DNA of 64,000 nt from an uncultured Rickettsiales bacterium (GTDB taxonomy: Bacteria; Pseudomonadota; Alphaproteobacteria; Rickettsiales; UBA1997), in assembly GCA_944392135.1 (NCBI GenBank), contig CALXVQ010000003.1, positions 8,075-72,074 of the forward strand, read 5' to 3'. The notes under the pieces are model-generated. The model was not told the origin of the DNA. It saw only the letters and a program-made list of their open reading frames with translations, and did no database searches. Of the stretch, positions 6,980-63,246 are shown one piece after another; positions within the stretch are counted from its first letter, which is position 1; each line of letters begins with the position of its first letter. Position numbers and translations under genes: made by a program.

Positions 6980-7720
6980 TTATTCAATACCATAATAAAA
7001 ACGATTACATACATTATTTGAATATATATAATTACAACCAGATCTAAAATTGCCAGAGTTCCATATATTATCATCTAACTTTTGATCAAGTCTTTGAAAA
7101 ATCTTATTTTTTATATTTGGATTTTCTTTTTTAAAGAATGTTAGCCAAGTTTTTTCTTTCATTAAATATTTTGGAGATGTTGGACTAGTTTCATATATTC
7201 CCTTTTCATAATAATAAACATAATCAGGAAAAGCTTTTGAATATGGACAACCACCATTAAGTTCTGATAACATTGCAGTGCTAGGTATCTTTTTTTTAGG
7301 TTCAAAATCAATAATTTTATTTAAATATAAATCAACAAATGGACCAGTACGAGCAGTTGGTAGACCATAATCTTGATTACCAGAAACATATGGTGTACCA
7401 AAATTGTTATTATTATAACTTTGATTACTTAAATAGCCAATAAAACCAGAGCCAACAAAATCTCCTGGTAATCTATCTTTCATTGATTTAAAAGTATATA
7501 AAGCTTGTTTATAAGTTGTAAGTTCGTTAATTACAGACTGAATTTTTGCACTCTCAATCAAACTAGTCCCACCAGTAATACCAGCAATTAAAAGCCCAAT
7601 AATAATTAATACTATTGATAACTCAATAAGTGAAAATGCAAAGATATTATTTTCCTTTTTGTATTTATAAAATATTGTTAATAATTTATTAATAAAATTT
7701 TTACTTTTATATTTATCCAT
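6980..7720 (-). CDS. Type IV pilin / type II secretion pseudopilin-like protein (prepilin-type N-terminal domain)
   Basis: A basic leader of ~27 aa is followed by FAFSLIELSIVLIIIGLLIAGI. This is the prepilin cleavage/methylation helix with the conserved Glu at position +5. No partner pil/gsp genes lie nearby. Confidence 0.6.
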   Translation of the reverse strand: MDKYKSKNFINKLLTIFYKYKKENNIFAFSLIELSIVLIIIGLLIAGITGGTSLIESAKIQSVINELTTYKQALYTFKSMKDRLPGDFVGSGFIGYLSNQSYNNNNFGTPYVSGNQDYGLPTARTGPFVDLYLNKIIDFEPKKKIPSTAMLSELNGGCPYSKAFPDYVYYYEKGIYETSPTSPKYLMKEKTWLTFFKKENPNIKNKIFQRLDQKLDDNIWNSGNFRSGCNYIYSNNVCNRFYYGIE

Positions 7721-7876
7721 AAAAAATTATGTATTATTCGTAGTATTTGCTACTAATTTATTAATTATCATTATTAAAATCAATAAATATTATATATTTT
7801 ATAATTATTACTCTCACTAACTATGATTCAATAAATTTAATTTTTTAATATTTTATAATGATTTTAATTGCAATAG

Positions 7877-8013
7877 TAAAAATAAAAGGTGAAGCAAAAC
7901 TTCACCTAAAAATACTATAATAAAAATAGTAGCCCAAAAGTTAGATAAAGGATGGGCGACCTTACGAATCTCTTCTTATTATAGCAAGCTGTTTTAATTT
8001 CCTATGTTAAAAC
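7877..8013 (-). ncRNA. tracrRNA: tracrRNA (predicted)
   Basis: Minus strand 8013->7979 reads GTTTTAACATAGGAAATTAAAACAGCTTGCTATAA. By hand it pairs with nt 2-36 of the crRNA-sense repeat: 29 Watson-Crick pairs, 2 G:U pairs and 4 mismatches in two internal bulges. It is followed by a tail with hairpins and ends at AGGTGAAG-TTTTG-CTTCACCT plus TTTTATTTTT (7907->7877). The ends are inferred, not mapped. Confidence 0.75.
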
Positions 8014-8019
8014 AATAAG

Positions 8020-8049
8020 ATTATAAAAATATAAATTTCTTAAAGTCAA
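8020..8049 (-). promoter_or_regulatory. Sigma-70-type promoter of the tracrRNA
   Basis: On the minus strand: TTGACT (8049-8044), N18, TATAAT (8025-8020), then 6 nt to the first G of the anti-repeat. Confidence 0.55.
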
Positions 8050-8124
8050 GTCTTTTCAATAAACATATTGCAATTTTTAATAATCTTTTTTATATATAGT
8101 ATATCAATAATATATATAAAACAT

Positions 8125-11100
8125 ATGTTAAAACGAATATTAGGATTAGACTTAGGTATTTCAAGTATCGGTTGGGCAATTACCGAGATTGATGATTTGG
8201 ATTTTGTTAACAATAATGGTGAAGTTTTTCTTAGAAATGGAAAAATTGTTGATTGTGGTGTTAGAATTTTTGATGCTTGCGAACAGCCTGGTAATAAACA
8301 TGAAGCTTCTGCATTACCAAGAAGAAATGCTAGATTAAATAGAAGAAGATTATTTAGAAAGTCAGCTAGATGTAAAAAAATTAGAGAATTATGTGAAAAA
8401 CAATTTAATATTAAAATTGATGATAAATTTTTTAAAAAAACATTAGATAAAAATGATTTTAAAGATGTATGGATTTTAAGAAAAGAAGCATTAGAAAGAA
8501 AATTAAATGAAATAGAATTAAGTAGAGTTTTGTGTCATATAGTAAAGCATAGAGGTTGGGCTAGCAGAAGAAAAAGCGAAGAAAAAGAAGGTGATTCTGG
8601 TAAAATGAAAACTGCTATTGATAAATTAAAACAAGAATTAGGAGATGATAAAACACCTGGTTATTATTATGGAAAATTAAAAGCTGAAAGTTTAAATTAT
8701 GATAATGAAAAAATAATAAACGAACATCAAAATTATGATCATTGTATTGGAAGAAGTCAAAATGAATTTGAAATAAAAAAAATTTTTGAAAAACAGAGAA
8801 AATTTGGTTTTGATAAATTAAATGATGATTTTGAAAATGAAGTTTTAAAATTATTTAATTATGAAAAAGAAACTAAATCAATCAAAGATATGATTGGTTT
8901 TTGTTTATTTGAAAAAGGTGAATTTAGAGCACCAAAAGAATCTTATTCTGCTGAATTATTTAATGTTTATACAAAAATTAATAATTTAAAAGTATTAGAT
9001 ACAAAAGATGTTGATTATGATAAAAAGTTTAATAGTTTAGTGGAATTATTCAAAACTAAAAAAGAAGTAAAATATAAAGATATTAGAAAAGAATTAAAAC
9101 TTGATGATAATTATAAATTTAAAGGTTTAGATTATTATCAAGCTGAATATGTTGAATTTAAAAAAGCTAAAAATTCAACAGAATTAACATTATCTAATAC
9201 AGATAAAAATAATATTGAAAAATATAAATTAGAAGGCTTTTTTATAGAAGAACCAGATAAAGCTAGAAAAGTATTTTTTAAAAATGATAAAGGTGAATAT
9301 AAATATAAAAGCAAAAACGATATAGAAAATGTAAAAATATATTCAATGGTTGGTTATCATAAAGTTAAAGATGTATTAAATGATGAAGAATTTAAAAAAT
9401 ATATAGAAAAGGATAAAGATTCACCATTTATAATAGATACTATAATGGAAGCTTTGTCATATGAAAAAAATGATGAAAAAAGTAAAAAATATATGCAAGA
9501 TCATAATATTCCAGAAGATATTATTGATAAATGTTTAAATATTCAAACTAGTAATTTTATTCATATATCTTGTAAAGCTATTAGAAATTTATTACCATAT
9601 TTAGAAAAAGGTTTAACTTATGATAAAGCTTGTTTAGAGTGCAATTATGAATTTAAAGATGACTCAAAAAACAATCAACAAGATTTTTTGCCTACATTAG
9701 AAGAATATACAAAAGAAAATGATATTGCTAAATTAACAAATCCAGTAGTAAAAAGAACTCTATCACAAACAAGAAAAGTAATAAATGCAATTATTAGAAA
9801 ATATGGAAATTTTGATCAAATAAATATAGAATTCACAAGAGATTTAGGAAAATCTGCTGATGAAAGAATTAAAATTGAAAGAGGGCAAAAAGAATTTAGA
9901 GATTTAAAAGAAGAATTAAAAAAAGAAGCTTCTTTAATATTACATGTAAATGAAGATGTAATAACTGATAAACAAATTTTAAAATTAAGGCTATACAAGC
10001 AACAAGAAGGAAAAAGTTTATATTGTAATCCATTAGAAAAATTACCAGATTTAAAAGAAATTTTAACTGATGATAAATGTTGCGAAATAGATCATATTTT
10101 GCCTTATTCAAAAAGTTTTGATGATTCTTTAAATAATAAAGTTTTAGTTTTACCAAAAGAAAATCAAAACAAACAAAACAGAATACCTTTTGAATATTTA
10201 AAAGATAGCAATTGGGAAGAATGGAAAAAAATTATATGGAGTATACAAAGTTTACCATATATAAAAAGAAAAAATTTAACAACTGAAAGTTATGATTTTG
10301 TAGATAAATGGAAAGCTAGAAATTTATGTGATACAAGTTATATATCAAAATATTTAGTAAAATATTTATCTAAAAGCTTAAAATTTAAAGAAAATGATAA
10401 AATAAAAAATAAAATTCAAGTTAGACCGGGACAATTAACATCTTATTTAAGACATATATGGGGCTTAGGTGAAAAAATTAGAAGTGATGGCGACACACAT
10501 CATGTAGTTGATGCTATTATTATTGCTTGTGCTACTCAATCAATGTGTCAAATGATTTCTGCACTACATGCTACACAAAGAAGTGAAGATGTAAAACAAC
10601 AACAAAAAGAAATTTTTGATAAAATAAATAAATTAAAATCTTTATCAAAAACAAAAGAAATTGAAGAAAAAATTAAAGAATTAGAAGAAGAAAGCAAATG
10701 GTATAATTTAATTGAATCTAGACATATATTAGAAGGGCATTGTAAATTAAATGGTATATGGGAAAATTTTGTAAGTGATGTTACTAAAAAAGTAAACAAT
10801 TTAACAAAAACAAATGAAACAACTGGTTTACCAGAAAACAATCAAAATATTGTTTCACGAATGCCACGAAGAAAAATCACAGGAGAAGCTCATGATGCAA
10901 CAATAAAAGGTTTAGATAAAGTAGAAAATATAACTTATACTAAAACTAAATTATCAAAATTAACATTAAAAAATATAGAAAATTTGCAAGACAAAGATGG
11001 TGCCTCTAAAAATTTATATAATATATTAAAAAATAGATTAGAAGAATTTAATGGAGATGCCGAGAAAGCATTTAAAGAACCTATTTATATGACTAATAAA

Positions 11101-11670
11101 AATGAAGAATATGATGAAAATAAAACTCCACAAATAAAAAGTGTAAAATTAGTTTCTAATTATACAGGTGGTGGAGTTGAAATAAATAATGGTATTGCTC
11201 AAAATGGTGGTATGCCAAGAGTTGATATATTTTACAAAGATAACAAATATTATGCAGTTCCAATTTACATTGCTGATTTTGTAAAAGATGAATTGCCAAT
11301 CTTATCAAAACCACACAATATTGATTTTCCAATTGAAGAAAAAGAAGATGATAAATTTTACAATAAACATTTTGTTTTTAGTTTATATAAAGATGAGTTG
11401 ATTTATTTTAGAACAAAGAAAAACGAACAATATTTTGGTTATTTTTGTTCTTTTGATGCAAGTCAAGCTAATACAATTAAAATAGAATCATTAGATAGAA
11501 GTAAAAAATATTTAGTTGGCAATAAATATGATAAAGAAATTAGGATATCCTTAGGTAGTATAATATCTTTAAAAAAATTTCAAGTAGATCCATTAGGTTA
11601 TATAAACGAAGTAAAACAAGAAAAGCGACAAGGTATAATTGAGAAAAAATGTAAAAAACAAAAAAATTAA
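8125..11670 (+). CDS. cas9: Cas9, type II-C architecture (1181 aa from ATG 8125)
   Basis: RuvC-I ILGLDLGISSIGWAI; Arg-rich bridge helix ALPRRNARLNRRRLFRKSAR; HNH CEIDHILPYSKSFDDSLNNKVLVLPKENQNKQNRIPFEY; RuvC-III THHVVDAIIIACAT. Only cas1 and cas2 follow (no csn2 or cas4), which indicates II-C. The tracked start at 8068 is a TTG that adds 19 hydrophobic residues. Confidence 0.95.
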   Translation: MLKRILGLDLGISSIGWAITEIDDLDFVNNNGEVFLRNGKIVDCGVRIFDACEQPGNKHEASALPRRNARLNRRRLFRKSARCKKIRELCEKQFNIKIDDKFFKKTLDKNDFKDVWILRKEALERKLNEIELSRVLCHIVKHRGWASRRKSEEKEGDSGKMKTAIDKLKQELGDDKTPGYYYGKLKAESLNYDNEKIINEHQNYDHCIGRSQNEFEIKKIFEKQRKFGFDKLNDDFENEVLKLFNYEKETKSIKDMIGFCLFEKGEFRAPKESYSAELFNVYTKINNLKVLDTKDVDYDKKFNSLVELFKTKKEVKYKDIRKELKLDDNYKFKGLDYYQAEYVEFKKAKNSTELTLSNTDKNNIEKYKLEGFFIEEPDKARKVFFKNDKGEYKYKSKNDIENVKIYSMVGYHKVKDVLNDEEFKKYIEKDKDSPFIIDTIMEALSYEKNDEKSKKYMQDHNIPEDIIDKCLNIQTSNFIHISCKAIRNLLPYLEKGLTYDKACLECNYEFKDDSKNNQQDFLPTLEEYTKENDIAKLTNPVVKRTLSQTRKVINAIIRKYGNFDQINIEFTRDLGKSADERIKIERGQKEFRDLKEELKKEASLILHVNEDVITDKQILKLRLYKQQEGKSLYCNPLEKLPDLKEILTDDKCCEIDHILPYSKSFDDSLNNKVLVLPKENQNKQNRIPFEYLKDSNWEEWKKIIWSIQSLPYIKRKNLTTESYDFVDKWKARNLCDTSYISKYLVKYLSKSLKFKENDKIKNKIQVRPGQLTSYLRHIWGLGEKIRSDGDTHHVVDAIIIACATQSMCQMISALHATQRSEDVKQQQKEIFDKINKLKSLSKTKEIEEKIKELEEESKWYNLIESRHILEGHCKLNGIWENFVSDVTKKVNNLTKTNETTGLPENNQNIVSRMPRRKITGEAHDATIKGLDKVENITYTKTKLSKLTLKNIENLQDKDGASKNLYNILKNRLEEFNGDAEKAFKEPIYMTNKNEEYDENKTPQIKSVKLVSNYTGGGVEINNGIAQNGGMPRVDIFYKDNKYYAVPIYIADFVKDELPILSKPHNIDFPIEEKEDDKFYNKHFVFSLYKDELIYFRTKKNEQYFGYFCSFDASQANTIKIESLDRSKKYLVGNKYDKEIRISLGSIISLKKFQVDPLGYINEVKQEKRQGIIEKKCKKQKN

Positions 11671-11678
11671 TTTTTATT

Positions 11679-11703
11679 AGGCACTATTGAGTGCCTTTTT
11701 TAT
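11679..11703 (+). terminator. Hairpin with T-tract between cas9 and cas1
   Basis: AGGCACT-ATTG-AGTGCCT followed by TTTTTTATT, 9 nt after the cas9 stop. Confidence 0.55.
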
Positions 11704-11722
11704 TAATAAATTTTTAATTAAC

Positions 11723-12625
11723 ATGTCTTGGAGAATAATTTTAATTACAAAACCTTGTAAAATATCTTACAAAAATAATCAATTAGTTTATCAACCACAA
11801 GATGAAGAGGAATTGCAAGTTCCATTAGAAGATATAGGGGCTATTGTAATAGATACACCACAAATAAATATTACTGGTTATTTATTATCGGAAATTGCAA
11901 ATAATAAAATTGTTGTTTTAACTACTGATAATTCACATACACCAAATGGAATTTTTTTGCCATATATGCAATATTATAAAAATGCAGAAACTGCCTTCTT
12001 ACAAAGAGATTGGAGTGAAGCTTTTAAAAAAAGATTGTGGCAAAAAATAGTTCAACAAAAAATACAAAATCAAGCATTATGTATAAAAAATATAAATAAT
12101 AATTTATATAAATATTTAATTGGTTTATCAAAAGAGGTTTTATCGGGTGATACATCTAATATTGAAGGAAGAGCAGCAAAAGAATATTGGAAAGTATATT
12201 ATAATAATTTTATAAGACATGATAACACAAAAGTAAATTCTGCTTTGAATTATGTTTATATGATTACTAGAAGTTTAATAGCAAAAAATTTATCCGCATT
12301 AGGTTTTATTACTTGTTTTGGTTTGCATCATTGTAATATGTATAATTCTTTTAATTTAGCCGACGATTTAATAGAACCATTTAGAGGAATTATAGATTTT
12401 AGAGTAAAAAAATTATATGACATTGATGATAAAGATGATACACTTACAATAGAAGACAAACAAAAACTTATAGAAATTATTTTTTATGAAGTTAATTATG
12501 GGGGACAAAATTATAATATGATGTATGCTACACAATTATTAACTGAAAATCTATTAAACATTACAAAAAATAATGAAGCAAAAAATTTTATTTTACCAAC
12601 TTTTCCTAAGGATTTATTATTTTGA
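11723..12625 (+). CDS. cas1: Cas1 integrase
   Basis: 300 aa from ATG 11723 (MSWRIILITKPCKISYKNNQLV...). Cas1 motifs are present: NIEGRAAKEYW, FGLHH, ADDLIEPFR. The tracked TTG start at 11687 lies inside the upstream terminator hairpin. Confidence 0.9.
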   Translation: MSWRIILITKPCKISYKNNQLVYQPQDEEELQVPLEDIGAIVIDTPQINITGYLLSEIANNKIVVLTTDNSHTPNGIFLPYMQYYKNAETAFLQRDWSEAFKKRLWQKIVQQKIQNQALCIKNINNNLYKYLIGLSKEVLSGDTSNIEGRAAKEYWKVYYNNFIRHDNTKVNSALNYVYMITRSLIAKNLSALGFITCFGLHHCNMYNSFNLADDLIEPFRGIIDFRVKKLYDIDDKDDTLTIEDKQKLIEIIFYEVNYGGQNYNMMYATQLLTENLLNITKNNEAKNFILPTFPKDLLF

Positions 12626-12633
12626 GGTATTTT

Positions 12634-12966
12634 ATGGACTATACAAGGGATAAATTTATGAGAATGTTAGTATTTTTTGATTTACCTGTTAAAACAAAAG
12701 AAATGATGAAACAGGCAAATAAATTTAGAAAAGTTTTATTAAATGATGGCTTTCAAATGTTACAATTATCTGTTTATTCTAGAATAATTAGAAATGATTG
12801 TAATGTAGAAACTCACTTGCAAAATATAAAAAAACAAATACCACCACATGGTAGTATAAGAGTTTTAACAGTTACAGAAAAACAATATGCCAGCATGGAA
12901 ATTTTAGTTGGAGAACAAACAAAACAAGAAAAAAAAGTTGGACCTCAACAGCTTTTATTATTTTAA
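12634..12966 (+). CDS. cas2: Cas2
   Basis: ATG 12634 lies 6 nt after GAGG. FMRMLVFFDLPVKTKEMMKQANKFRKVLLNDGFQMLQLSVYSR is the typical type II Cas2 N-terminal ferredoxin fold. The tracked TTG start at 12622 overlaps the cas1 stop. Confidence 0.85.
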   Translation: MDYTRDKFMRMLVFFDLPVKTKEMMKQANKFRKVLLNDGFQMLQLSVYSRIIRNDCNVETHLQNIKKQIPPHGSIRVLTVTEKQYASMEILVGEQTKQEKKVGPQQLLLF

Positions 12967-13020
12967 TAAATCTCAAAAAAATGAAAAAATTTTATAAATT
13001 TTTCTAAAAAATTCTCATTT

Positions 13021-13062
13021 TTTCTTTAAAAAAATACAAAACAAACCCTTTATTATCAAGGG
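13021..13062 (-). terminator. Possible terminator for minus-strand array transcription
   Basis: On the minus strand: CCCTT-GATAATA-AAGGG followed by TTTGTTTTGTATTTTTTT. On the plus strand no T-tract follows the hairpin. The stem is short (5 bp). Confidence 0.35.
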
Positions 13063-13076
13063 CTAAAAAGCTTGCT

Positions 13077-14829
13077 ATTCTAACATAGGAAATTAAAAAC
13101 GCAAGCTATAACAGGCGTTGCCAACGCCTTTACTGGCGGTATATTCTAACATAGGAAATTAAAAACGCAAGCTATAACGTAAAATCATTCAGTAAGTTCA
13201 TCATTTTCATTCTAACATAGGAAATTAAAAACGCAAGCTATAACGATGATATAATAATTTTTCAACAAGCAACAATTCTAACATAGGAAATTAAAAACGC
13301 AAGCTATAACTAGGTTTGTTGTGTTCTGAATACAATCAAGATTCTAACATAGGAAATTAAAAACGCAAGCTATAACTGTTAATTGTTCGTCAATATTGAT
13401 TTTGCCATTCTAACATAGGAAATTAAAAACGCAAGCTATAACAAAAAGCTTTTGTTTTTCTTGTTTGTATAAATTCTAACATAGGAAATTAAAAACGCAA
13501 GCTATAACTTCGGCTTCTCAGTCCTCAAACTCTTCTGTATTCTAACATAGGAAATTAAAAACGCAAGCTATAACAAAAAATGTCTTATAATAAAAATACA
13601 CGAAATTCTAACATAGGAAATTAAAAACGCAAGCTATAACTATACGCGCAAATGACACCACCTTATAAAAATTCTAACATAGGAAATTAAAAACGCAAGC
13701 TATAACGTTATTTCTGCAATCAAATTATTTGCAAAAATTCTAACATAGGAAATTAAAAACGCAAGCTATAACAAGAAAGGAAGAGAATAGTAATGAGGCT
13801 TAATTCTAACATAGGAAATTAAAAACGCAAGCTATAACAGCCGTATTTGACATTTTTTCTTGGAATGCCATTCTAACATAGGAAATTAAAAACGCAAGCT
13901 ATAACAACGAAATTCCTTGAACTTTTGTTGGCAAAATTCTAACATAGGAAATTAAAAACGCAAGCTATAACTGAGGTATTGCTCGTCACCTAGACCGTTT
14001 TATTCTAACATAGGAAATTAAAAACGCAAGCTATAACTGTAAGTCTAACTCGCCCAACTATTGAAAAATTCTAACATAGGAAATTAAAAACGCAAGCTAT
14101 AACCGCGGTTGTGTTGATTTTAAAGGTATCTCCATTCTAACATAGGAAATTAAAAACGCAAGCTATAACCGCGGTTGTGTTGATTTTAAAGGTATCTCCA
14201 TTCTAACATAGGAAATTAAAAACGCAAGCTATAACTAGATTTATATTCAGCCCATTCTTTTACAGATTCTAACATAGGAAATTAAAAACGCAAGCTATAA
14301 CTGAATCAAATAAACCCATAAGCAACTCCTTATTCTAACATAGGAAATTAAAAACGCAAGCTATAACTTGGCAGTATGGCATTGTCGATGTAGGTTAATT
14401 CTAACATAGGAAATTAAAAACGCAAGCTATAACCGGTTATAAAGGTAAGATATCTGCTCTCCAATTCTAACATAGGAAATTAAAAACGCAAGCTATAACC
14501 GGTTATAAAGGTAAGATATCTGCTCTCCAATTCTAACATAGGAAATTAAAAACGCAAGCTATAACAAATAAGAATCTTTATAACTTTTATTTTCTATTCT
14601 AACATAGGAAATTAAAAACGCAAGCTATAACAGATACGACAACCGACACTTCTATCCCATTATTCTAACATAGGAAATTAAAAACGCAAGCTATAACAGG
14701 ACTACAAAACTATAAGACAGAGCAAAAATTCTAACATAGGAAATTAAAAACGCAAGCTATAACAATTAAAAAAATTAATAAAATTATTAAAATATTCTAA
14801 CATAGGAAATTAAAAACGCAAGCTATAAC
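13077..14829 (-). CRISPR. Type II-C CRISPR array, 27 repeats and 26 spacers
   Basis: There are 27 identical 36-nt repeats. Plus strand: ATTCTAACATAGGAAATTAAAAACGCAAGCTATAAC. crRNA sense (minus strand): GTTATAGCTTGCGTTTTTAATTTCCTATGTTAGAAT. Spacers are 30 nt (spacer 12 is 31 nt), giving a 66-nt period. The first repeat is 13077-13112 and the last is 14794-14829. Orientation rests on the GTT... start, tracrRNA complementarity and the extended -10 TGTTAGAAT at the repeat 3' end. Confidence 0.97.
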
Positions 14830-14832
14830 ATC

Positions 14833-14926
14833 TTGCCTTTTCTGCCCATATAGAACAAAACATTTATTAGTAAGTTTGTTGCAAATATTTTATTGAGTTT
14901 TTGTTCTATATGGGCAGAAAAGGCAA
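14833..14926. repeat. Perfect 28-bp inverted repeat with a 38-nt loop
   Basis: 14833-14860 is TTGCCTTTTCTGCCCATATAGAACAAAA. 14899-14926 is its exact reverse complement, TTTTGTTCTATATGGGCAGAAAAGGCAA. Confidence 0.9.
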
Positions 14927-14961
14927 TTTTAGCGAATCTATTTTTATAGTCAAGCTATAAC
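14926..14961 (-). repeat. psiR1: divergent 36-nt CRISPR-repeat-like element
   Basis: Minus strand: GTTATAGCTTGACTATAAAAATAGATTCGCTAAAAT. It has the same length as the canonical repeat and 23/36 identity by eye, with both termini conserved. It is identical to psiR2. Confidence 0.85.
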
Positions 14962-15218
14962 TTCGCATCTAGATAATCAAAAGGGCCATCTATAATAGCA
15001 TCTATAAACATCTCTTTTGCTCTCTCTTCAACTTCATCTTCATTTTTTATATATGAATTATCTGCTAATATTAAGCCTGTGTCTGGGTGTCTTACATAAT
15101 CCTCAACTACTATACCTACTTCTTTAGCAGCATCTTCTTCAAAACTATCTCTATAATCCTCCCAAACTTCTTTAATATACTCATCTAAACTAGATGTCTT
15201 CTCTTTATTATTACTCAT
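14955..15218 (-). CDS. Hypothetical small, strongly acidic protein (87 aa; 25 D/E versus 10 K/R)
   Basis: Tracked ORF. Its TAG stop is the TAG inside the GTTATAG of psiR1. I recognise no domain. Confidence 0.5.
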   Translation of the reverse strand: MSNNKEKTSSLDEYIKEVWEDYRDSFEEDAAKEVGIVVEDYVRHPDTGLILADNSYIKNEDEVEERAKEMFIDAIIDGPFDYLDAKL

Positions 15219-15227
15219 ATTTTCTCC

Positions 15228-15599
15228 TTAAATCATTCTAACTATATTAATATTAAAAATTATTATTAAATAACCTAACATTCCTATTAATAAAAAAAAA
15301 CTAACTATAAACTTAACTATTTTAAATCCTAAAGTTTTTTCTATATCTATATCTTCATATATAATTTCACTTTTAGGACAATAAAAACTAAAATCTGTTC
15401 TAGGTTTAAAATATTCTGTTATATCTAATGTTTCTATATCCACACCAGTTTCATTCCAAAACTTAAATACCTTAATATTATCACTCTTTATATCTTCTAT
15501 ATCTTTAAGAGTACTAATATTATTTTTCTTAAAATATTGGACTACTTGTTGTAATGTTTTACTCTGGTGTCCTTTAATTTCTAATCCGTTATATATCAT
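15228..15599 (-). CDS. Hypothetical protein with a C-terminal transmembrane anchor (123 aa)
   Basis: Tracked ORF with a C-terminal hydrophobic helix, FKIVKFIVSFFLLIGMLGYLIIIFNI. It lies 9 nt upstream of the acidic ORF on the same strand. Its ATG overlaps (ATGA) the end of a start-less 43-codon frame that begins inside psiR2. Confidence 0.5.
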   Translation of the reverse strand: MIYNGLEIKGHQSKTLQQVVQYFKKNNISTLKDIEDIKSDNIKVFKFWNETGVDIETLDITEYFKPRTDFSFYCPKSEIIYEDIDIEKTLGFKIVKFIVSFFLLIGMLGYLIIIFNINIVRMI

Positions 15600-15698
15600 T
15601 CTTCTACCATTTTTAATGCTTCTAGTATAGCTTCTTTTTGTATACTTAAAGCTAAATCTCTAAATTTTCTCTTAACTTCACTAGGAACTTCACTTTCT

Positions 15699-15734
15699 AT
15701 TTTAGCGAATCTATTTTTATAGTCAAGCTATAAC
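15699..15734 (-). repeat. psiR2: divergent 36-nt CRISPR-repeat-like element
   Basis: 36/36 identical to psiR1, with unrelated flanks on both sides. Confidence 0.85.
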
Positions 15735-16154
15735 TGCTGAAAGCCAACACTTTCTGAACTTTATTAATAAGTTTCTTGTACATATTTGTTAAAGTATAGC
15801 AATGTTAAAGCTATATAGACTTAATATTTTAAATTTATTTACTTTTAAAAATATTATTATATAATGTAAATGTAAGGTTTGTAGAGGAACGAGCTTTGCC
15901 TCCTAGTGCCTGTCTACATAGTAATTATTAATTAGTAGTGTAACCTTTAATAGCCTTACATCTAATAATCATAATAAGCTGTAATTACTAATTGTATTTT
16001 TAAATTCTTAAAATTTGGTTCTACAACAGCAGTTTTACCTTTATACCTTAATTTTAAAGCATTGCCATTTTCTTCAATTTTATCTTTTTAATAGTGTCTG
16101 TTAAATCATCAAAAATTTTTCAATGGTTATTTTATTTCTTTCTTGTATCTATTA

Positions 16155-33977: not shown

Positions 33978-36900
33978 ATGACAAAAAATAAAGTTTTTAT
34001 TTTATTTCGTATGAAGTTGTTAATAATAACTTTATTTTTTCTCTTTATACCTTTTTTATTTTCAGCAAATGCAACTTCCTTAGATAATAATAGATATGTA
34101 ATAGATTTTAGTGAAAACCCACAGAGTGGTTCTTATAATTTTTTAACAATTAGTAAATATAATAAACATACAAATTATTTGCCAAAGTGTTCTGATGGCT
34201 TTACGGGCTCTGATTGGATAACATATCCATCTACCACAAATGTACCACAAAATGTTACTTGTTTAAAAAAAAATTATTGTTCTGATTTAGATGAAAATGG
34301 CGAATTAATAGTGCAATCTCCTGGTGTTGATGAAAATGGCAATCCAAATTGTTATAGAAAAAGTTGTTTAGATCTTACAACAGAAGAATTGAAAGCAATT
34401 TTTAAAAGACAGTATGGTGTAGATGCTGATGCTTATTACGAATCTGGTTATACTGCAACAACTGGACAAAATTTTTATAAATTTTGTGAACCTTATAGAT
34501 ACTTAAATATGAGTATTGGTGGAAAATCTATTCCAGTTAAAGTTGATGTAGAACCGGTATATTGTCATATGTTTGGAAAAGATGAAATTAAATATTTAAT
34601 ACCAAATGTTAAAGGTATTAAAGATACAGAAACTAACTCAATTGATGTTTATCAATGTATGATACATGAATGTCCTTTATCATCAATTCAAAGTGCTACT
34701 TGTCCGACTAATTTTTGGTTATTTTCTTATAAAAATGACAATATAAGATATAGGAGCGATGATTACATAGCAGAATATGAAGATAAAATGTTAGGTGGTT
34801 CTACTACTAATATTGGTACACAATTACTAAATTATTGTAGTGATGTTAATTGTTCTAAATATAGGGTTACAGATTGGTTAGATTGTAATATTAGTATTGA
34901 TCCACAATGTCAAACATGTATACAAAAAATAAATAGTTATAATTGTGGTGATTGTTTTGAAGAAATTATGAATGAAAGTTCTTGTAATGGTTGTTATTCT
35001 TTTCTTAAGAATACAGAATGTGATGATTACGAAGGATTAGACAATATTTTTAAAGATAAAACATATTACACTAATTTATTAAAAGCTTTTATGGATTATA
35101 ATCTTGCTACACAAACATGTAATACAGATGGTACTTGCCGAAAATCAATTGATTGTTCTTTAATAGAAAATAAAGATCATATATTATGTAATTCCGAAAC
35201 ATCTTCGGATCAAACAATGGATTCTGAATTATCTTATTTTTATAGACCATTTCCTCCACAAGAATCAACTGAAATATTACCAGTAAAACGATCTTGGATT
35301 GCTGATGGTAGTATTGCAGAACATATTTATAGTGATGATTATGATCCAAATGCTGTTAGAGCTTTATCTGCAATAGAACCAATTGCTGAAGTAACTGTAA
35401 TTAAGAGATCGTTAAGGGGTTCGATGATAAAACCTATACCACCAACTAAAACTTTTACAAGAGATACAAAAAGTTTAACTAGCACTTTTTCAAATATAAA
35501 TGAAAATTCTAATAGAAGTGATTTTTTTAATTATATAGATAAGAAAAATTATTATAATGATTACACAAATAATATTTGTATTCCAAATAATGAAGAATTT
35601 ATGAAATATGTATCTAGAAAAACTTATTTGACATCAAATTCTCAAAATAAATGGGATGAGGGTGAATATTATTATAAAAGTTTTGTTGATGATATAAATA
35701 ATGGAAAATTTATAACAAGTGAAAAAATTATAAATACACCTTTATGTGATTTAAATAACGAAAGAACAAATCGTTTGGTTAAAAGTGGTCGACGAGCTTT
35801 TTGTACTCAGAATTATGATGATAATGATGTTTGTGATACACCTAGATCTGATAGTTATTATATTAAGGGCAAACCAAATTTTACTTGGCAAGCTGGTACG
35901 AATAAAATTGCTACTGCTTCGGTTACTGTTTGTTTAAGAAGAAGGAGCGAATATAAAGGAGAGGATAAACATTTGGAATATATTGTTAATAATTATGGTG
36001 GTACTACATTGGTACCTGTAAGTACATCTTATGGTGTTTGTGGAGCACGAGAATGTTTTATATCATGTGCTAATGCAGATTGTACAGAATTTACACAAAC
36101 TTGTGGTGATGATATGTGTGTTACATTAACTTGGCATGATGGTGATGATTGTACAATTAAAAATTTAGATAAATATGATATATATAATCATCCTTCTTGT
36201 GCAAGGGCAATACTTTATACAGGTACTACCTCAAAAGGAAAACCAGATGCGATAAGATTTAGATTGAATAGACATCCAAATAATGGAAATTTTTATGTTT
36301 ATGTTGATGCTGGGAATGATAACTGTAAATGGGCAGGTGCAGACGAAAATGATTATAGAAAAAGTTATGATAAATTTTATACAAGATCTGTAAATGATAA
36401 AACTGTTTTTGGAACTACAACAATTAAAGAATATATAGGAAAAATAGATGATAGAAGTTTAATAGATGATAATTCATTAACTAATTATGATGGAAATGCT
36501 ACATATATTACAGATGCAGATGTTTATGGTGAGGAATTATATAAACAATTAAATTGTGATAATATAAATAGCGAACTTAGTCCTTGTAATAGTATGGCTA
36601 GCAATGTAGGAGAGGGTACTGGTAATTGGGTTGGTTGGGATATTGTACAATATATTGGTAATAATCAGCCAACAGAAAATAATCCAAATTGTAAAGTTGG
36701 TCAATTAATGAATTGTAGAGGATATTATGATGCCGAAGGTGTTTTCCATAGAGAACAACAAGGTTTTTCTGCTCCATTAGCTATTTCACCAGATGTCTTT
36801 TATAGGTATGCAACAAAAGAAAATTCTAGTGATATGTTTACTCCACTATTAAAAATCAAATTTGTAATTACACATGATGATAATGTATATGTATTAAAAA

Positions 36901-39900
36901 ACACAGAAGAAGATAAAGAAGTGGAATTAAGTTTTTTTGAACCAAATATGACTATAAATTATGAATTAAGAGAATTATCTAATGTAAAATTGTCATTTCA
37001 GGAGTCGGAACAAGAATATCTTATTCATGATAGTAAAGGAAAAAATCCACAATATTTTATTATTAAAAAAACTCATGCAACAGATGATATATCACAACCT
37101 CAAGTATGTATATCTAAGGTATTTGAATCAAAAGATGATAAAGGTTTTGATGGTTATGATTATGAAGATGTGGTTCAATGTTTAAAGAGAAAAAAACCTA
37201 CAGCGCAATCATTAGCCATAAGACCAATATATCCTTATGAGGGAGAAAAACCACATCTTATTGCTTTTTTTATCAATTATAATAATGTAAATAAAAACGA
37301 GGATGTTATTAATGAAAATAACAAAGATAATGTATTAGCATTTTTAAATAGGGAACAACTACTAAATGGTATTGAAAAAAGAGAATTATTTGATAATTCT
37401 AGTGGTATTTTACAAGGTTATGTAATAAATATAAAAAAAAGTTATTGTGCTCAACTACATCATGAATGTTTGGATATTGCTATAAATCTTGAAGAGCAAG
37501 AAAGGGCATATACAAGGCTTGTTAATGAAAATGCACTTTTAACTTCTGTTAATACTGCTAAATCTGATGTATCAAAACTAAAAAGTAAGCTTGATACTTG
37601 TAATAATATAATTAAACCATATTGTGAAAATATAACTGATGGTGTAATAATGGTTAAAGAATTATATTCTGGCAATAATTTAACTATTTCAAACGATTAT
37701 AATGCATATTTTAATAATTATAATGCAAATATTAGAGAATGTGTTTTAGCAAATAATTGTTCTGATACATTACAAAATCTTATTAATAAAATTCATCAAT
37801 ATAGGAAAAATAAGGAACTTACTTTTCAACATAAAGTTTATCCAAAAAATTATAGGTTAAATCCGGCTACAAATGATATATGTGTTGTAAGTGGTTTTGA
37901 AGACTATTACCCAAATGTAATAGCATTGCCTTCTGCTGATCTACAAAGACCAGGTAAATGTATTTTAAATAATAGTAGTAAATTAAAAAGTGAATGTAGA
38001 AGAGAATATTATGTTGAGTATTGTACTGATAATGCAGATTCACAATGTTTCTGTATTGATGGTACTGCTGAATGCGATTGTACATTTGGTGATACATGTA
38101 TTAAAAAAAATTATTGTACTTGTTCTGATACAGGGGAAGGTATTGCTTGTGATGAATTGCCAGAAGAGTGTTATCTTCCAGGTTATAATGGATATGGAAT
38201 AGTACTTAATAGTAGTGATAAGTTAGACAAAATTTGTGAATGTGAATATAATACAGATGGAATAGCGCAAACTGGTAGAGAAATTAGAAAGGCTACTGCC
38301 AGAGAACTAGGTTTTTGTGGCGATTTGAGAAATATAAATTTTTGTGAACCTGTGAAATATTATAATAGTGAAAAAATTTATGTGGATGGTGGTGCGGGAG
38401 AAAAATTAGATGTAATACAAAATAAATATTATAGTAATATTTGGCGAACTAATCAAAAACAATATGGAAAACTAAGTAATGACAATTTAGAACATGCTGA
38501 ATTTGATCTATCTACATATTCAAATGCCTATGATTATTTTCGTTTAGAAAAATTATATTGTGTTGATGAAAATAATAATGGTTATTATTATGCTTTGCCG
38601 ATAGATGCTTGCTATAACGAATATACAAAATGTTTATCACAAGAAGAATGCGAGGTAAATCCAGAAAAATGTTTTACACCAGATGAGTGTAAAAATAGAT
38701 ATGAAAAATGTTTACAAAATTCAACTTGTCAAGATGGATATAGAAAAATATATGCCACAGAAGGTGAATGTAAAGGATTTTGGAAAAATAAAACTGTAAG
38801 AGATAGTTTAAATAAAAAATATGATTTAAATCCACTTGCGGTTTGTCAGCAAACAGGTTTATTTGAACTTATTGATAATTCTGGTTGTGAAAGATATTCA
38901 TGTCCGGCAAAGTCAGAATTACAGCCTGATTATGGTACATACGATGAAAAGAGTAGTACAATTATAAATGAAAAAACACAAATTACAGCTAATCTTGTTG
39001 GTAAATCAAATGGTTTTGCAAACTGGAATTCTTATAAAAAAGGTACTTATAATATAATTACAGGCGAAATATTGACAGATGGCAATGAAAATGGACATGG
39101 TGATGATATAGAACAACAAAGGGCAACAAGCTGTATTACTGGTTATGCTCCTGCTGGTTTTAAAAATATATTACAACAATATTATCCAGTACCTTTAATA
39201 GATGGAAATTCTAGTGATGGTCAACAAGATTTAGTTATAGATAGTAATTTTAATATGGATATATTTATAGATAATATGTTATTAAATACAGAAGATATAG
39301 TATCTACAGAAAATATGTTATCTATACTATCATATGATGCAAGAGAACATTTACCAGTTAGATATTGCAATCAAATTGGGGAGTGGATGCCAGTGTTAGA
39401 TATTTATAATAGATTTAATGTGCCTTTATATTATATTGGTAGCCCAGTTTATAGTAATAATTATGTTGATTTAGATAAATATTCTACAACAACAAAATCT
39501 AAAATAGAAACAAATACATATGGTATTACTGTTGATTATTCACAAAAATATTGTGAAAGGTTATTTTGTAAAGCCTTAAATGGAGATGATATAAATTCAA
39601 TAAATAAAGAAAATGCTGATATTAATATAAATAATGTAGAAAAGTATAAAATAATTTCTAACAAAACAAATACTAATATTGCTTATTTTAAAGATAATAG
39701 TGAAGTTAATAAATTTACAGTTTGGAGACATACTGGTGGCGCAACTTGGCCAGAAACACCAACTTCGCTAAAAGGTGATTCTGTTGATGTTGTTGGCACT
39801 TGCTATAATGAGGATAGCTATTATCCTAATAATGCTGAATTTATACTTGATTCATATAATTATCAAGGTAATAATATTAAATTTTCTTCTTTTGAAAAAC

Positions 39901-62434: not shown

Positions 62435-62556
62435 ATAATTAAAAAATATTAATAATATTATTGTTTTAGTATTTATTCTTACAATATTGAAAAATAAATT
62501 GATTTTTTTATTATAAATATTACACTTGGTCTAAGTCTAATTATATTAAAAATTTT

Positions 62557-63246
62557 ATGTCAGATAAAAAACTTATAATCAAAAATATTTTTTGGGATGT
62601 TGATGGTGTTTTAGCAAACTTGAACCATGCTTATTATTGCTTTATTAAGAATCATCCTAAATTTAAAGATCATTTTAAACAATATGAATATAAAGATTTA
62701 GCAGAAGCTTTACCAATAGATACAGAAAAATATGGAGCTATGGAATTAAAAACACACCCAACCCTTGGTATAGAATTAGACAAAGAATTTTGTGTAAGTA
62801 ATGATTATTATTTTGATAGACCATTATACCCAGGTACTGCAAAAATATTAAGAGAATTAAACGATATGGGTTATTTACAAATGACTATGTCAGCAGGATT
62901 TAATATGGATAAAAAGAAGGAATTATTAAAAAGAGTACTTGGTGATTTAACTGACTTTGTAAAAATTGAAGTTGTTGAACACGATAAAGCAGGTATGCAT
63001 GCTGGAAGTACAAAAGAAGCTAAAATGTTAGAAGTTTTAGAAAAACTTGGTGCAAAACCAGAAGAAACTGTTTTGGTTGATGACAGAATTTATAATATAT
63101 ATTCAGCTTTAAAAGCAGGAGTTCATCCAGTTAGATTTAGAAGTGAATTTACAACAGATTCACCAGCTGATTTAAAAGATGTTCCAGAAGTTGAAAATAT
63201 CTATCAATTCAAGGATTGGCTATTGACAAATACAACCATGAAATAA
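62557..63246 (+). CDS. HAD-like hydrolase / 5'(3')-nucleotidase-like protein
   Basis: Motif I is FWDVDGVLAN and a late VDDR motif is present. 229 aa. Confidence 0.5.
   Translation: MSDKKLIIKNIFWDVDGVLANLNHAYYCFIKNHPKFKDHFKQYEYKDLAEALPIDTEKYGAMELKTHPTLGIELDKEFCVSNDYYFDRPLYPGTAKILRELNDMGYLQMTMSAGFNMDKKKELLKRVLGDLTDFVKIEVVEHDKAGMHAGSTKEAKMLEVLEKLGAKPEETVLVDDRIYNIYSALKAGVHPVRFRSEFTTDSPADLKDVPEVENIYQFKDWLLTNTTMK

What the first reader, a model, noticed from the sequence alone, without database searches (positions are those of the whole stretch)
7877..14829. Complete type II-C CRISPR-Cas locus with an antisense array, repeat-embedded promoters and a fully predictable tracrRNA
SEEN. The gene set is cas9-cas1-cas2 only. 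The repeat in crRNA sense is GTTATAGCTTGCGTTTTTAATTTCCTATGTTAGAAT, and its last 9 nt, TGTTAGAAT, form an extended -10 (TGnTAnAAT). A minus-oriented hairpin with a T-tract lies between repeat 1 and cas2. The tracrRNA is upstream of and divergent from cas9. It has TTGACT-N18-TATAAT, a 35-nt anti-repeat (29 Watson-Crick pairs, 2 G:U pairs, 4 mismatches) and an intrinsic terminator.

ESTABLISHED. Neisseria meningitidis and Campylobacter jejuni type II-C systems make processing-independent crRNAs from promoters inside each repeat, and the C. jejuni repeat has a very similar ...TTTTTAAATTTCTTTATGGTAAAAT 3' half.

INFERENCE. This locus works the same way. The Cas9 (1181 aa) is somewhat larger than the compact II-C enzymes and is encoded in an extremely AT-rich genome that may belong to a host-associated bacterium, where active CRISPR systems are uncommon.
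Basis: partly seen in the sequence, partly recalled or inferred. Interest (0 to 1): 0.55.

Follow-up and report, generated by a model that had tools for sequence, protein, structure and literature searches.

The report
Complete type II-C CRISPR-Cas9 locus
This is a complete and apparently active Cas9 (type II-C) CRISPR immune locus of the Neisseria/Campylobacter kind in a very AT-rich uncultured bacterium, so it is a well-formed new member of a known class and not a new kind of system.

Summary
cas9 (8125-11670), cas1 and cas2 are followed by 27 identical 36-nt repeats and 26 spacers (13077-14829). A divergent tracrRNA gene (8013-7877, minus strand) lies upstream of cas9. It has the best promoter match in the region, a 36-nt anti-repeat (29 Watson-Crick, 3 G:U, 4 mismatches) and an intrinsic terminator.

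Four more distant relatives (46-68% Cas9 identity) carry the same tracrRNA design, with compensatory changes in two stems and in the repeat:anti-repeat duplex. Anti-repeat polarity means the crRNAs come from the minus strand, converging on cas2. Every repeat ends in TGTTAGAAT. The terminal -10 hexamer is kept in all relatives examined, but the TG is not. Promoter activity remains inferred from N. meningitidis and C. jejuni.

The Cas9 catalytic residues are intact and the best solved relative is Nme Cas9. Spacers have turned over almost completely between strains, and one spacer matches a Microviridae gene.

A 28-bp perfect hairpin abuts the oldest repeat, as described for II-C 'extraneous crRNA' suppression. 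Beyond it, promoter-bearing fossil repeats flank a variable small-gene cassette.

Verdict: a new member of a known kind, of modest interest.

The parts
7877..8013 (-). tracrRNA gene, about 137 nt. It comprises the anti-repeat (8013-7978), a nexus-like stem GCCCA/TGGGC, an AU-rich hairpin and a terminator hairpin (7907-7887) followed by a T tract.
   Evidence: It is conserved in L001 and L003-L007. There are compensatory changes in the terminator (4 pairs) and in the GCNNA stem (2 double changes).
8020..8049 (-). tracrRNA promoter, TTGACT-N18-TATAAT. The predicted start is about 8013, the first base of the anti-repeat.
   Evidence: 11 of 12 matches, the best in the region. The -35 and -10 elements sit at the same distance from the anti-repeat in L003, L004/5 and L006.
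8125..11670 (+). cas9, 1181 aa. Catalytic residues D9, E569, H657, H792/H793 and D796 are present. Clan-specific insertions lie at 339-393 (by position, the recognition lobe) and 833-870.
11679..11696 (+). Terminator-like hairpin GGCAC(N4)GUGCC followed by a U tract, in the 52-nt gap between cas9 and cas1. It may attenuate cas1-cas2 expression.
   Evidence: The hairpin is conserved in L001, L004 and L006 but absent in L003.
11723..12625 (+). cas1, 300 aa from the ATG. The ORF is open from TTG at 11687.
   Evidence: (TIGR03639 cas1_NMENI, 270 bits).
12634..12966 (+). cas2, 110 aa.
12967..13076 (-). cas2-proximal flank of the array. It holds the minus-strand hairpin with T tract (13064-13044) and the junction motif AAAAAGCTTGCT next to repeat 1. 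In II-C systems this is the presumed spacer-integration side. The hairpin would also stop transcripts that start at the last repeat's promoter.
   Evidence: The junction motif recurs in L005 and L006, and a comparable hairpin occurs in L008. The integration side is taken from PMC12080349 and was not shown here.
13077..14829 (-). CRISPR array with 27 identical 36-nt repeats and 26 spacers. Each repeat, in crRNA sense, carries TTGCGT-N16-(TGT)TAGAAT, with the -10 as its last 6 nt.
   Evidence: The tandem spacer duplications (16=17, 21=22) recur in the independent contig L016.
14833..14926 (-). Perfect 28-bp inverted repeat with a 38-nt loop, 3 nt upstream (crRNA sense) of the oldest, 'extra' repeat. 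It would sequester the would-be guide of an extraneous crRNA.
   Evidence: (-55.6 kcal/mol, z = -9.07). It is conserved in L015 and L021-L023, but the loop is reverse-complemented in L021-L023. The concept comes from PMC12080349.
14926..14961 (-). Degenerate ('fossil') repeat A, GTTATAGCTTGACTATAAAAATAGATTCGCTAAAAT. It is 23/36 identical to the consensus repeat and contains TTGACT-N16-TAAAAT.
14955..15599 (-). Two small orphan genes, of 87 aa (14955-15218) and 123 aa (15228-15599), transcribed toward the array. The cassette varies between strains.
   Evidence: Searches give no family. Homologues are confined to this lineage. The 87-aa gene is truncated in L001 and deleted in L021-L023.
15699..15734 (-). 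Degenerate repeat B, an exact copy of A. Its promoter-like motif faces the two small genes. In L001 a partial third copy follows it at the CRISPR period of 66 nt.

Best explanation
This is a functional type II-C CRISPR-Cas9 adaptive immunity locus.

**Shown from sequence and comparison**
- cas9, cas1 and cas2 are intact.
- A tracrRNA gene with its own promoter and terminator diverges from cas9.
- There is a 27-repeat array whose minus-strand transcript is the only one able to pair with the tracrRNA anti-repeat.

**Inferred by analogy with N. meningitidis and C. jejuni**
- Each repeat acts as a promoter. It has a -35-like TTG at repeat positions 9-11, a 16-nt spacer, and TGT-TAGAAT as the last 9 nt.
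- Transcription therefore starts about 5-7 nt into the next spacer and produces one crRNA per unit with a guide of about 24 nt.
- The repeat part pairs with the tracrRNA. The duplex has 8 bp, a conserved 2x2 internal loop, then a long helix.
- RNase III probably trims the 3' end but may be dispensable.
- Cas9 uses the dual RNA to cut PAM-flanked DNA.

**Inferred from the literature on II-C**
- New spacers enter at the cas2-proximal repeat.
- At the opposite, oldest end, the 28-bp hairpin abutting the extra repeat sequesters the would-be guide of an 'extraneous' crRNA. As a long perfect duplex it may also expose it to RNase III. That RNA would arise from read-through of the upstream small genes or from the fossil-repeat promoter.
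- The hairpin with T tract next to cas2 stops transcripts from the last repeat's promoter before they run antisense into cas2.

At least some targets are small ssDNA phages (Microviridae).
For: - **Gene identities and subtype:**
- **Cas9:** full-length alignment to the best solved relative (6jdq and its series, E = 3e-142), with the RuvC and HNH catalytic residues conserved.
- **tracrRNA promoter and terminator:** the best promoter and a terminator on the minus strand.
- **Repeat:anti-repeat duplex:** -37.5 kcal/mol against -8.3 for shuffles.
- **tracrRNA in relatives:** the same architecture occurs in L003-L007, with the anti-repeat co-varying with the repeat (for example L006), 4 compensatory pairs in the terminator and 2 in the GCNNA/TNNGC stem.
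- **Repeat 3' ends:** TAGAAT, TAAAAT, TATTAT, TATAAT and TATGAT in seven different repeats from relatives down to about 33% Cas9 identity.
- **Literature:** C. jejuni repeats end in GGTAAAAT, with transcription starts at position 5 of each spacer (PMC3656092). Promoters within each repeat are shown in N. meningitidis, where RNase III is dispensable (PMC5965381). II-C acquisition polarity and hairpins that suppress extraneous crRNA are described in PMC12080349.
- **Signs of activity:** 27 of 27 repeats are identical. No spacers are shared with L001, and only one with L021, although the cas DNA is 91-93% identical. L001 carries variants of one protospacer acquired three times.
- **Target:** spacer 12 matches a Microviridae pilot-protein gene at 28/31, with all mismatches at third codon positions.
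- **Upstream hairpin:** z = -9.07, unique in the window and conserved across strains.
Against: - There are no transcript data, so promoter use inside the repeats, the start sites and RNase III independence are all untested.
- Promoter-like motifs are abundant in this roughly 26% GC sequence.
- The TG of the extended -10 is absent in L006 and L008.
- A stronger full promoter (TTGACT-N16-TAAAAT) lies 97 nt upstream of the array in fossil repeat A. It could instead drive a long precursor.
- The hairpin next to cas2 is weak or absent in L005 and L006.
- Acquisition polarity could not be resolved from the strains available.
- The PAM is unknown. Seven exact or codon-degenerate spacer scans of viral contigs found nothing. 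An eighth, codon-degenerate scan found only diverged microvirus homologues of spacer 12.
- L001 lacks the upstream hairpin altogether, so the hairpin is not essential.
Confidence: 0.8

Rival explanations
1. crRNAs come mainly from one long precursor. It would be driven by the strong promoter in fossil repeat A (or by read-through from the two small genes) and be cut by RNase III with tracrRNA, as in type II-A. On this view the repeat-terminal -10 is incidental.
For: TTGACT-N16-TAAAAT at 14953-14926 scores 10 of 12, better than the repeat's own motif. The small genes point into the array. -10-like motifs are frequent in this AT-rich DNA. The TG is lost in two relatives.
Against: A transcript from that promoter must pass a 28-bp perfect hairpin that abuts the first repeat. 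L001 lacks fossil repeat A and the hairpin, yet keeps a 43-repeat array. The terminal -10 hexamer is conserved across very different II-C repeats. Both experimentally studied II-C systems use repeat promoters (PMC3656092, PMC5965381). The two routes are not mutually exclusive.
Confidence: 0.15
2. The array is transcribed on the + strand together with cas9-cas1-cas2, and the minus-strand features are coincidental.
For: No + strand terminator lies between cas2 and the array, so cas operon read-through into the array is plausible.
Against: A + strand transcript has the same sense as the anti-repeat and cannot pair with the tracrRNA. The tracrRNA's own promoter and terminator fix its strand. In crRNA sense the repeat begins GTTATAGC, as type II repeats typically begin (my knowledge), and is 27/37 identical to the C. 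jejuni repeat. Any + strand RNA would be antisense by-product.
Confidence: 0.02
3. The locus is an inactive relic that is well preserved but no longer acquiring spacers or interfering.
For: No protospacer with a perfect match was found. The contigs with identical Cas9, from three samples, show the same array as far as each extends.
Against: All repeats are identical and the catalytic residues are intact. Spacer content has turned over almost completely among strains whose cas DNA is 91-93% identical. L001 carries repeated acquisitions of variants of one protospacer.
Confidence: 0.03

Closest known systems
Neisseria meningitidis type II-C CRISPR-Cas9 (Nme1Cas9; Zhang et al. 2013, as summarised in PMC5965381)
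   Same: - The gene set is cas9-cas1-cas2 only.
- Repeats are 36 nt and spacers about 30 nt.
- A -10 element forms the last nucleotides of each repeat.
- The Cas9 is the best solved relative, aligned over the full length (6jdq and its series, E = 3e-142).
- Cas1 is of the NMENI type.
   Different: - This Cas9 is about 100 aa longer. It has insertions at 339-393 and 833-870 that its own small clade shares.
- No protein outside that clade exceeds 36% identity at full-length coverage.
- The tracrRNA lies upstream of and divergent from cas9. As I recall, the Neisseria tracrRNA sits elsewhere in the locus, but I did not check this.
- The PAM is unknown.
- The host is an uncultured lineage with about 26% GC.
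Campylobacter jejuni 'minimal' type II-C system (Dugar et al. 2013, PMC3656092)
   Same: - The repeat is 27/37 identical.
- Both repeats end in an extended -10-like motif: GGTAAAAT in C. jejuni and TGTTAGAAT here.
- In C. jejuni the crRNAs are individually transcribed from the upstream repeat.
- Both genomes are AT-rich.
   Different: - CjCas9 is much smaller. Its size of 984 aa is from my knowledge.
- The arrays here are far longer (27-43 repeats) and turn over quickly.
- The tracrRNA tail has a different stem set.
Devices that suppress extraneous crRNA upstream of II-C arrays (Feussner et al. 2025, PMC12080349)
   Same: - A helix covers the roughly 25 nt just upstream of the oldest, 'extra' repeat, one of the three strategies described.
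- Relative L003 instead shows another of the three strategies. Its extra repeat is mutated in its first 10 nt or so.
   Different: - The helix here is far longer, at 28 perfect bp against the >=8 bp criterion.
- Its loop is found in both orientations among strains.
- It is preceded by a promoter-bearing fossil repeat.
- Its function was not tested.

Membership tests
Type II-C CRISPR-Cas | A Cas9 effector with RuvC-like and HNH nuclease motifs | tested here: met
   HNH_4, RuvC_III and TIGR01865 (634 bits) hit the protein. D9, E569, H657, H792/793 and D796 align to the catalytic residues of the solved II-C Cas9.
Type II-C CRISPR-Cas | cas1 and cas2 present; no csn2 (II-A) and no cas4 (II-B) | tested here: met
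   cas1_NMENI and cas2 are present. The neighbouring ORFs are a pseudopilin-like protein and two orphan small proteins, and none hits Csn2 or Cas4 in Pfam, NCBIfam or PADLOC. Only ORFs of 50 aa or more between 6500 and 16500 were considered.
Type II-C CRISPR-Cas | A tracrRNA with an anti-repeat complementary to the CRISPR repeat | tested here: met
   The duplex has 29 Watson-Crick and 3 G:U pairs over 36 positions, at -37.5 kcal/mol against -8.3 for shuffles. The gene has its own promoter and terminator. It is conserved with covariation in relatives.
Type II-C CRISPR-Cas | Cas9 sequence groups with II-C enzymes rather than II-A or II-B | tested here: met
   The top solved matches (about 1055-1154 aa chains; 6jdq and others) score E = 1e-130 to 1e-142 over the full length. 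Matches to SpCas9-type chains are only E of about 1e-12, over the nuclease core. No formal phylogeny was built.
Repeat-embedded promoter (processing-independent) crRNA biogenesis, Nme/Cje style | A -10 element at the 3' end of every repeat in crRNA sense | tested here: met
   TGTTAGAAT forms the last 9 nt of all 27 repeats. A terminal TAnnAT hexamer is present in seven relatives' repeats. The TG is missing in L006 and L008.
Repeat-embedded promoter (processing-independent) crRNA biogenesis, Nme/Cje style | Primary (5'-triphosphate) transcript starts inside each spacer | not testable with these tools
   This needs dRNA-seq or primer extension.
Repeat-embedded promoter (processing-independent) crRNA biogenesis, Nme/Cje style | Interference persists without RNase III processing | not testable with these tools
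   This needs genetics or reconstitution.
Repeat-embedded promoter (processing-independent) crRNA biogenesis, Nme/Cje style | New spacers are added at the last repeat in transcription sense (the cas-proximal repeat) | tested here: inconclusive
   W and L001 share no spacers. W and L021 share only spacer 15, which has unique spacers on both sides. L015-L017 match W. The conserved junction motif on the cas2 side is only suggestive.
Extraneous-crRNA-suppressing upstream helix (PMC12080349) | A helix of at least 8 bp involving the roughly 25 nt immediately upstream of the extra (first-transcribed) repeat | tested here: met
   A 28-bp perfect helix ends 3 nt from repeat 27, with z = -9.07. It is conserved in four other contigs.
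Extraneous-crRNA-suppressing upstream helix (PMC12080349) | The helix lowers production or activity of the extraneous crRNA | not testable with these tools
   This needs a reporter or cell-free (TXTL) assay.

The most novel reading that the evidence does not exclude
The cas-distal end of the array may be a dedicated control module and not just debris. Promoter-bearing fossil repeats bracket a strain-variable small-gene cassette found only in this lineage. The cassette feeds into a 28-bp hairpin whose 38-nt loop flips between strains and which abuts the oldest repeat. On this reading the module gates read-through into the array, or the orphan genes are new CRISPR-linked accessory or regulatory factors. 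That would go beyond the three extraneous-crRNA countermeasures described so far.
Probability: 0.1. Interest if true: 0.55.

Novelty: new member of a known kind. Interest (0 to 1): 0.3.

Why it matters
The locus adds a well-documented II-C system, with a fully specified crRNA:tracrRNA pair, from a poorly known, very AT-rich uncultured lineage labelled Rickettsiales.

- **Cas9.** It belongs to a small clade (six 90%-identity clusters in a 5.8-billion-protein search). No protein outside it exceeds 36% identity at full-length coverage. The clade has its own recognition-lobe insertion, so it could offer a new PAM specificity for genome editing.
- **Ecology.** The fast spacer turnover, and a spacer derived from Microviridae, show that these bacteria are under active phage pressure.
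- **Array end.** The hairpin at the old end of the array is a clear natural example of the recently proposed II-C mechanism for suppressing extraneous crRNA.

None of this changes how type II-C systems are understood.

Tried and rejected
- **PAM.** I looked for protospacers in several ways.
  - Both arrays were searched against GenBank phages and the window array against plasmids.
  - Eight scans of IMG/VR used exact 22-24-mers or codon-degenerate patterns.
  - Only spacer 12 gave a credible target, and only through diverged homologues. The 3' flank (TATCAAAG and similar) reflects a conserved Gln-Arg codon pair, so no PAM can be called.
  - The T4-like endonuclease VII hits to the AT-rich spacer 6 were rejected as chance (low complexity, E of about 0.01).
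- **Self-targeting.** No spacer matched the window or any fetched locus with 4 or fewer mismatches.
- **Acquisition polarity.** Strain comparison was uninformative. The apparent difference in L015 is a scaffold gap of Ns.
- **Rfam.** There is no family for the tracrRNA or the repeat at either threshold.
- **More tracrRNA relatives.** A scan of JGI metagenomes with a conserved tracrRNA pattern found nothing.
- **The two small genes.** Pfam, NCBIfam, PHROGs and PADLOC gave nothing significant. Homologues are confined to this lineage and unannotated.
- **The hairpin as a repeated or mobile element.** Rejected, because the arms are unique in the window.
- **A promoter switch in the invertible loop.** Inspection found no convincing -35/-10 in either orientation.
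- **tracrRNA pseudoknot.** AAGG/CCTT would cross the GCNNA stem, but AAGG/CCTT is invariant, so this cannot be tested by covariation.
- **Host taxonomy.** I could not get beyond database labels. There is no rRNA gene in the window, and the literature search was unhelpful.

Full report
**1. What is there**

The window is very AT-rich; 2-kb windows range from 0.19 to 0.30 GC.

- **Genes.** cas9 is 8125-11670 (1181 aa from the ATG). It hits HNH_4, RuvC_III, TIGR01865 and several PADLOC Cas9 models. cas1 is 11723-12625, 300 aa from its ATG, with the ORF open from 11687; it hits TIGR03639, the type II 'NMENI' Cas1. cas2 is 12634-12966.
- **Array.** From 13077 to 14829 there are 27 copies of a 36-nt repeat, all identical. 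They separate 26 spacers of 30 nt (one of 31 nt). Spacers 16/17 and 21/22 are tandem duplicates. The first duplication recurs in an independently assembled contig (L016), so it is not an assembly artefact.
- **Subtype.** No ORF around the locus resembles Csn2 or Cas4. The gene set is therefore that of subtype II-C.

**2. tracrRNA and array orientation**

- **Promoter and terminator.** On the minus strand upstream of cas9, TTGACT-N18-TATAAT (8049-8020) is the best promoter match in 7700-16000. A 9-bp G+C-containing hairpin with a T tract (7907-7887) is one of six terminator-like sites, where 1.5 are expected by chance.
- **Anti-repeat.** Between promoter and terminator lies a 36-nt anti-repeat (8013-7978). 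It pairs with the minus-strand reading of the repeat, GTTATAGCTTGCGTTTTTAATTTCCTATGTTAGAAT. There are 29 Watson-Crick pairs, 3 G:U pairs and two 2x2 internal loops, at -37.5 kcal/mol against -8.3 +/- 2.5 for shuffles.
- **Orientation.** The tracrRNA strand is fixed by its own promoter and terminator. Only a minus-strand array transcript can pair with it. The array is therefore read toward cas2, antisense to the cas operon. This is the usual II-C arrangement (PMC12080349, PMC3656092).

**3. Comparative support**

- **The clade.** A protein search found only a small group around this Cas9. P0001-P0005 are 64-94% identical and P0006 is 46% identical; no full-length hit beyond them exceeds 36%.
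- **Nearest genome.** It is a MAG titled 'uncultured Rickettsiales bacterium' (L001). Its Cas9 is 96% identical and its repeat is the same, with 43 copies.
- **tracrRNA in relatives.** Loci for the relatives were fetched. In L003, L004/L005 and L006/L007 a tracrRNA lies in the same upstream, divergent position. Its promoter elements keep the same distance from the anti-repeat.
- **Covariation.**
  - The anti-repeat tracks the repeat. In L006, for example, the repeat TATATTAG matches the anti-repeat CTAATATA.
  - The 8-bp stem and 2x2 UU/UU loop at the start of the duplex are constant.
  - The terminator hairpin has four pairs with changes on both sides.
  - The 5-bp stem after the invariant GTAAGGTC reads GCCCA/TGGGC, GCCAA/TTGGC and GCTCA/TGAGC. 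That is two independent compensatory double changes.
  - An AU-rich hairpin between these two stems is kept with different sequences.
- Rfam has no family for this RNA.

The tracrRNA is therefore well supported.

**4. Repeat-embedded promoters**

In crRNA sense every repeat ends in TGTTAGAAT, an extended -10. A TTG lies 16 nt upstream of the hexamer, at repeat positions 9-11.

On its own this is weak evidence. TGNTANAAT occurs 64 times elsewhere in the window. Promoter-like sites are no more frequent here than in shuffles.

Its value comes from position and conservation. A -10-like hexamer forms the last six nucleotides of the repeat in every relative examined:

| Locus | Terminal hexamer | Source |
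|---|---|---|
| W (the window), L005, L006 | TAGAAT | |
| L003 | TAAAAT | |
| L008 | TATTAT | |
| L018 (about 35% Cas9 identity) | TATAAT | |
| L020 (about 33% Cas9 identity) | TATGAT | |

The L008 repeat also contains a full TTGACT-N16 upstream of its hexamer. The TG dinucleotide, however, is lost in L006 and L008.

In C. jejuni the repeat ends in GGTAAAAT and primary transcripts start at position five of each spacer (PMC3656092). In N. meningitidis promoters lie within each repeat and RNase III processing is dispensable (PMC5965381). The repeat here is 27/37 identical to the C. jejuni repeat.

It remains an inference from sequence and homology.

**5. Cas9 integrity and size**

The best solved relatives are the 6jdq/6jdv/8ja0 series. 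From my own knowledge these are N. meningitidis Cas9; the tool gives only 'Cas9'. The match is E = 3e-142 and spans the full length.

The following motifs align with the catalytic residues:
- LGLD9LG
- IE569FTR
- EIDH657
- the NQNK motif
- H792-H793-VV-D796-A

Compared with non-clade relatives of about 1030-1130 aa, the extra length sits mainly in two places. One is 339-393, which by position I assign to the recognition lobe; P0003-P0005 expand this site by a further 70-80 aa. The other is 833-870.

**6. Evidence of activity and targets**

- **Turnover.** All repeats are identical. L001 has 91% DNA identity across the module and shares no spacer with the window. L021 (92.6% identity) shares only spacer 15. 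L022 and L023 share none.
- **Repeated acquisition.** L001 has three spacers that are variants of a single protospacer.
- **A target.** Spacer 12 matches the DNA pilot protein gene of gut Microviridae. It is 28/31 identical to an IMG/VR microvirus, and all three mismatches fall at third codon positions of a conserved MAFQEKMSNTA motif.
- **Nothing else.** No other target was found, so no PAM can be called. There are no self-targets.

**7. The two ends of the array**

*The cas2 side.* According to PMC12080349, II-C arrays acquire spacers at the last repeat in transcription sense, which here is the cas2 side. The first-transcribed, oldest repeat is an 'extra' repeat that could give a useless 'extraneous' crRNA. 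A similar hairpin follows the last repeat in L008, but it is weak in L005 and L006. The 12 nt adjoining repeat 1 (AAAAAGCTTGCT) recur in L005 and L006. That fits a role as a leader-anchoring sequence but does not prove one.

*The oldest end.* Three nucleotides upstream of repeat 27 there is a perfect 28-bp inverted repeat with a 38-nt loop (14833-14926). Its fold is -55.6 kcal/mol with z = -9.07, and the arms are unique in the window. It covers exactly the would-be guide of an extraneous crRNA. This corresponds to the 'helix in the ecrRNA guide' strategy of PMC12080349. L003 instead has an extra repeat mutated in its first 10 nt or so, which is another of that paper's strategies.

**8.

- **Fossil repeats.** Directly upstream of the hairpin lies a 36-nt degenerate repeat (14926-14961). 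It is 23/36 identical to the consensus and carries TTGACT-N16-TAAAAT. An exact second copy lies at 15699-15734. In L001 the equivalent copy is followed, at the 66-nt CRISPR period, by a partial third copy. These are therefore fossil repeats.
- **The cassette between them.** Two minus-strand orphan genes (87 aa and 123 aa) point at the array. They have no family hit, and their homologues occur only in this lineage. The cassette varies:
  - The 87-aa gene is cut off by the array in L001.
  - It is deleted in L021-L023, where the other gene is only 62% identical.
- **Loop inversion.** The hairpin arms are identical in W, L015 and L021-L023. The loop in L021-L023 is the exact reverse complement of that in W. 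This is a flip-flop inversion between the arms. I found no promoter in either orientation, so I treat it as a probably neutral polymorphism.

**9. Host and context**

The GroEL encoded in the window is 99-100% identical to proteins on many metagenome contigs. Nearly all named relatives are 'MAG: Rickettsiales bacterium'. The window also encodes PFOR, F-type ATP synthase, SecY, RpoA, an MscS-type channel, serine dehydratase and oligopeptidase F. This does not look like an extremely reduced obligate intracellular genome. No rRNA gene is present to place the organism.

Homology between W and L001 is confined to 7880-15735, running from the tracrRNA terminator to fossil repeat B. In L001 that module sits between ftsK and rmuC, not between rplS and ychF. 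The other clade members also have different neighbours. The module has therefore moved as a unit.

**10. Verdict**

This is a textbook type II-C locus, with the antisense, repeat-promoter layout typical of the subtype, in a new and poorly known host lineage and with a moderately divergent Cas9. It is a new member of a known kind. The hairpin and fossil-repeat end of the array is the most unusual part and deserves a small follow-up. Interest is 0.3.

Noticed in passing
window 14833-14926; L021 6847-6940, L022 and L023 (reverse-complemented coordinates): The 38-nt loop between the perfect 28-bp inverted repeats is the exact reverse complement in L021-L023 compared with the window and L015, while the arms are identical. 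This is a flip-flop inversion polymorphism right next to the oldest CRISPR repeat.
   Followed up: partly
window 14926-14961 and 15699-15734; L001 14386-14421 and 14452-14479: Two exact copies of a degenerate CRISPR repeat, each carrying TTGACT-N16-TAAAAT, flank a strain-variable cassette of orphan small genes (87 aa acidic; 123 aa with a C-terminal hydrophobic segment). In L001 two copies sit at the 66-nt CRISPR period. The array there runs directly into the truncated 87-aa gene.
   Followed up: partly
window 11679-11696 (+): A terminator-like hairpin, GGCAC-loop-GUGCC followed by a U tract, lies in the 52-nt gap between cas9 and cas1. It is conserved in L001, L004 and L006 but not in L003. 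It may attenuate cas1-cas2 expression relative to cas9.
   Followed up: partly
window 13839-13869 (spacer 12): The spacer derives from a Microviridae DNA pilot protein gene. It is 28/31 identical to IMG/VR UViG_3300023271_000002, with mismatches only at third codon positions. It also matches microviruses from the Ciona gut at 26-28 of 31 positions.
   Followed up: yes
window 7880-15735 versus L001 5757-14421: Homology to the 91%-identical relative L001 starts exactly at the tracrRNA terminator and ends at fossil repeat B. In L001 the flanks are ftsK and rmuC. L001's left flank matches window 62470-63999. The whole CRISPR module therefore occupies different chromosomal sites.
   Followed up: partly
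window 14104-14199 and 14434-14529: There are two tandem duplications of spacer-repeat units (spacers 16=17 and 21=22). The first is also present in the independently assembled contig L016.
   Followed up: yes
L001 11053-11148 and 11779-11808: Three spacers in L001 (numbers 2, 3 and 13) are sequence variants of one protospacer. This suggests repeated acquisition from related invaders at the same site. A scan of IMG/VR with a codon-degenerate pattern found no match.
   Followed up: partly
window 7978-7986 (-): The 3' end of the anti-repeat reads TGCTATAAT, which is itself a perfect extended -10 inside the tracrRNA gene. This may be only a by-product of complementarity to the repeat's GTTATAGC start.
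   Followed up: no
window 7935-7963 (-), tracrRNA tail: The invariant AAGG...CCTT could pair across the covarying GCNNA/TNNGC stem, giving a pseudoknot-like fold. From memory, this recalls the unusual scaffold reported for the C. jejuni guide RNA. Covariation cannot test it because the AAGG/CCTT columns never vary.
   Followed up: partly
L008 6001-11375: The most distant clade member (46% Cas9 identity, a 'Rickettsiales' MAG) has an odd layout. Its cas9 is called as 898 aa plus a 105-aa ORF, cas2 is inverted, and cas1 follows. Its repeat, GTTAGTGCTTGACTTTTATCTTTAATATCTTATTAT, carries a full TTGACT-N16-TATTAT promoter.
   Followed up: no
L002 6000-6557: A 42%-GC contig labelled 'uncultured Ruminococcus sp.' ends with 558 nt that are 98% identical to window cas9 10221-10778. 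This is probably a chimeric or mis-binned contig end.
   Followed up: no
window 33978-41855 (+): A 2625-aa ORF has no Pfam match at E <= 1e-5.
   Followed up: no
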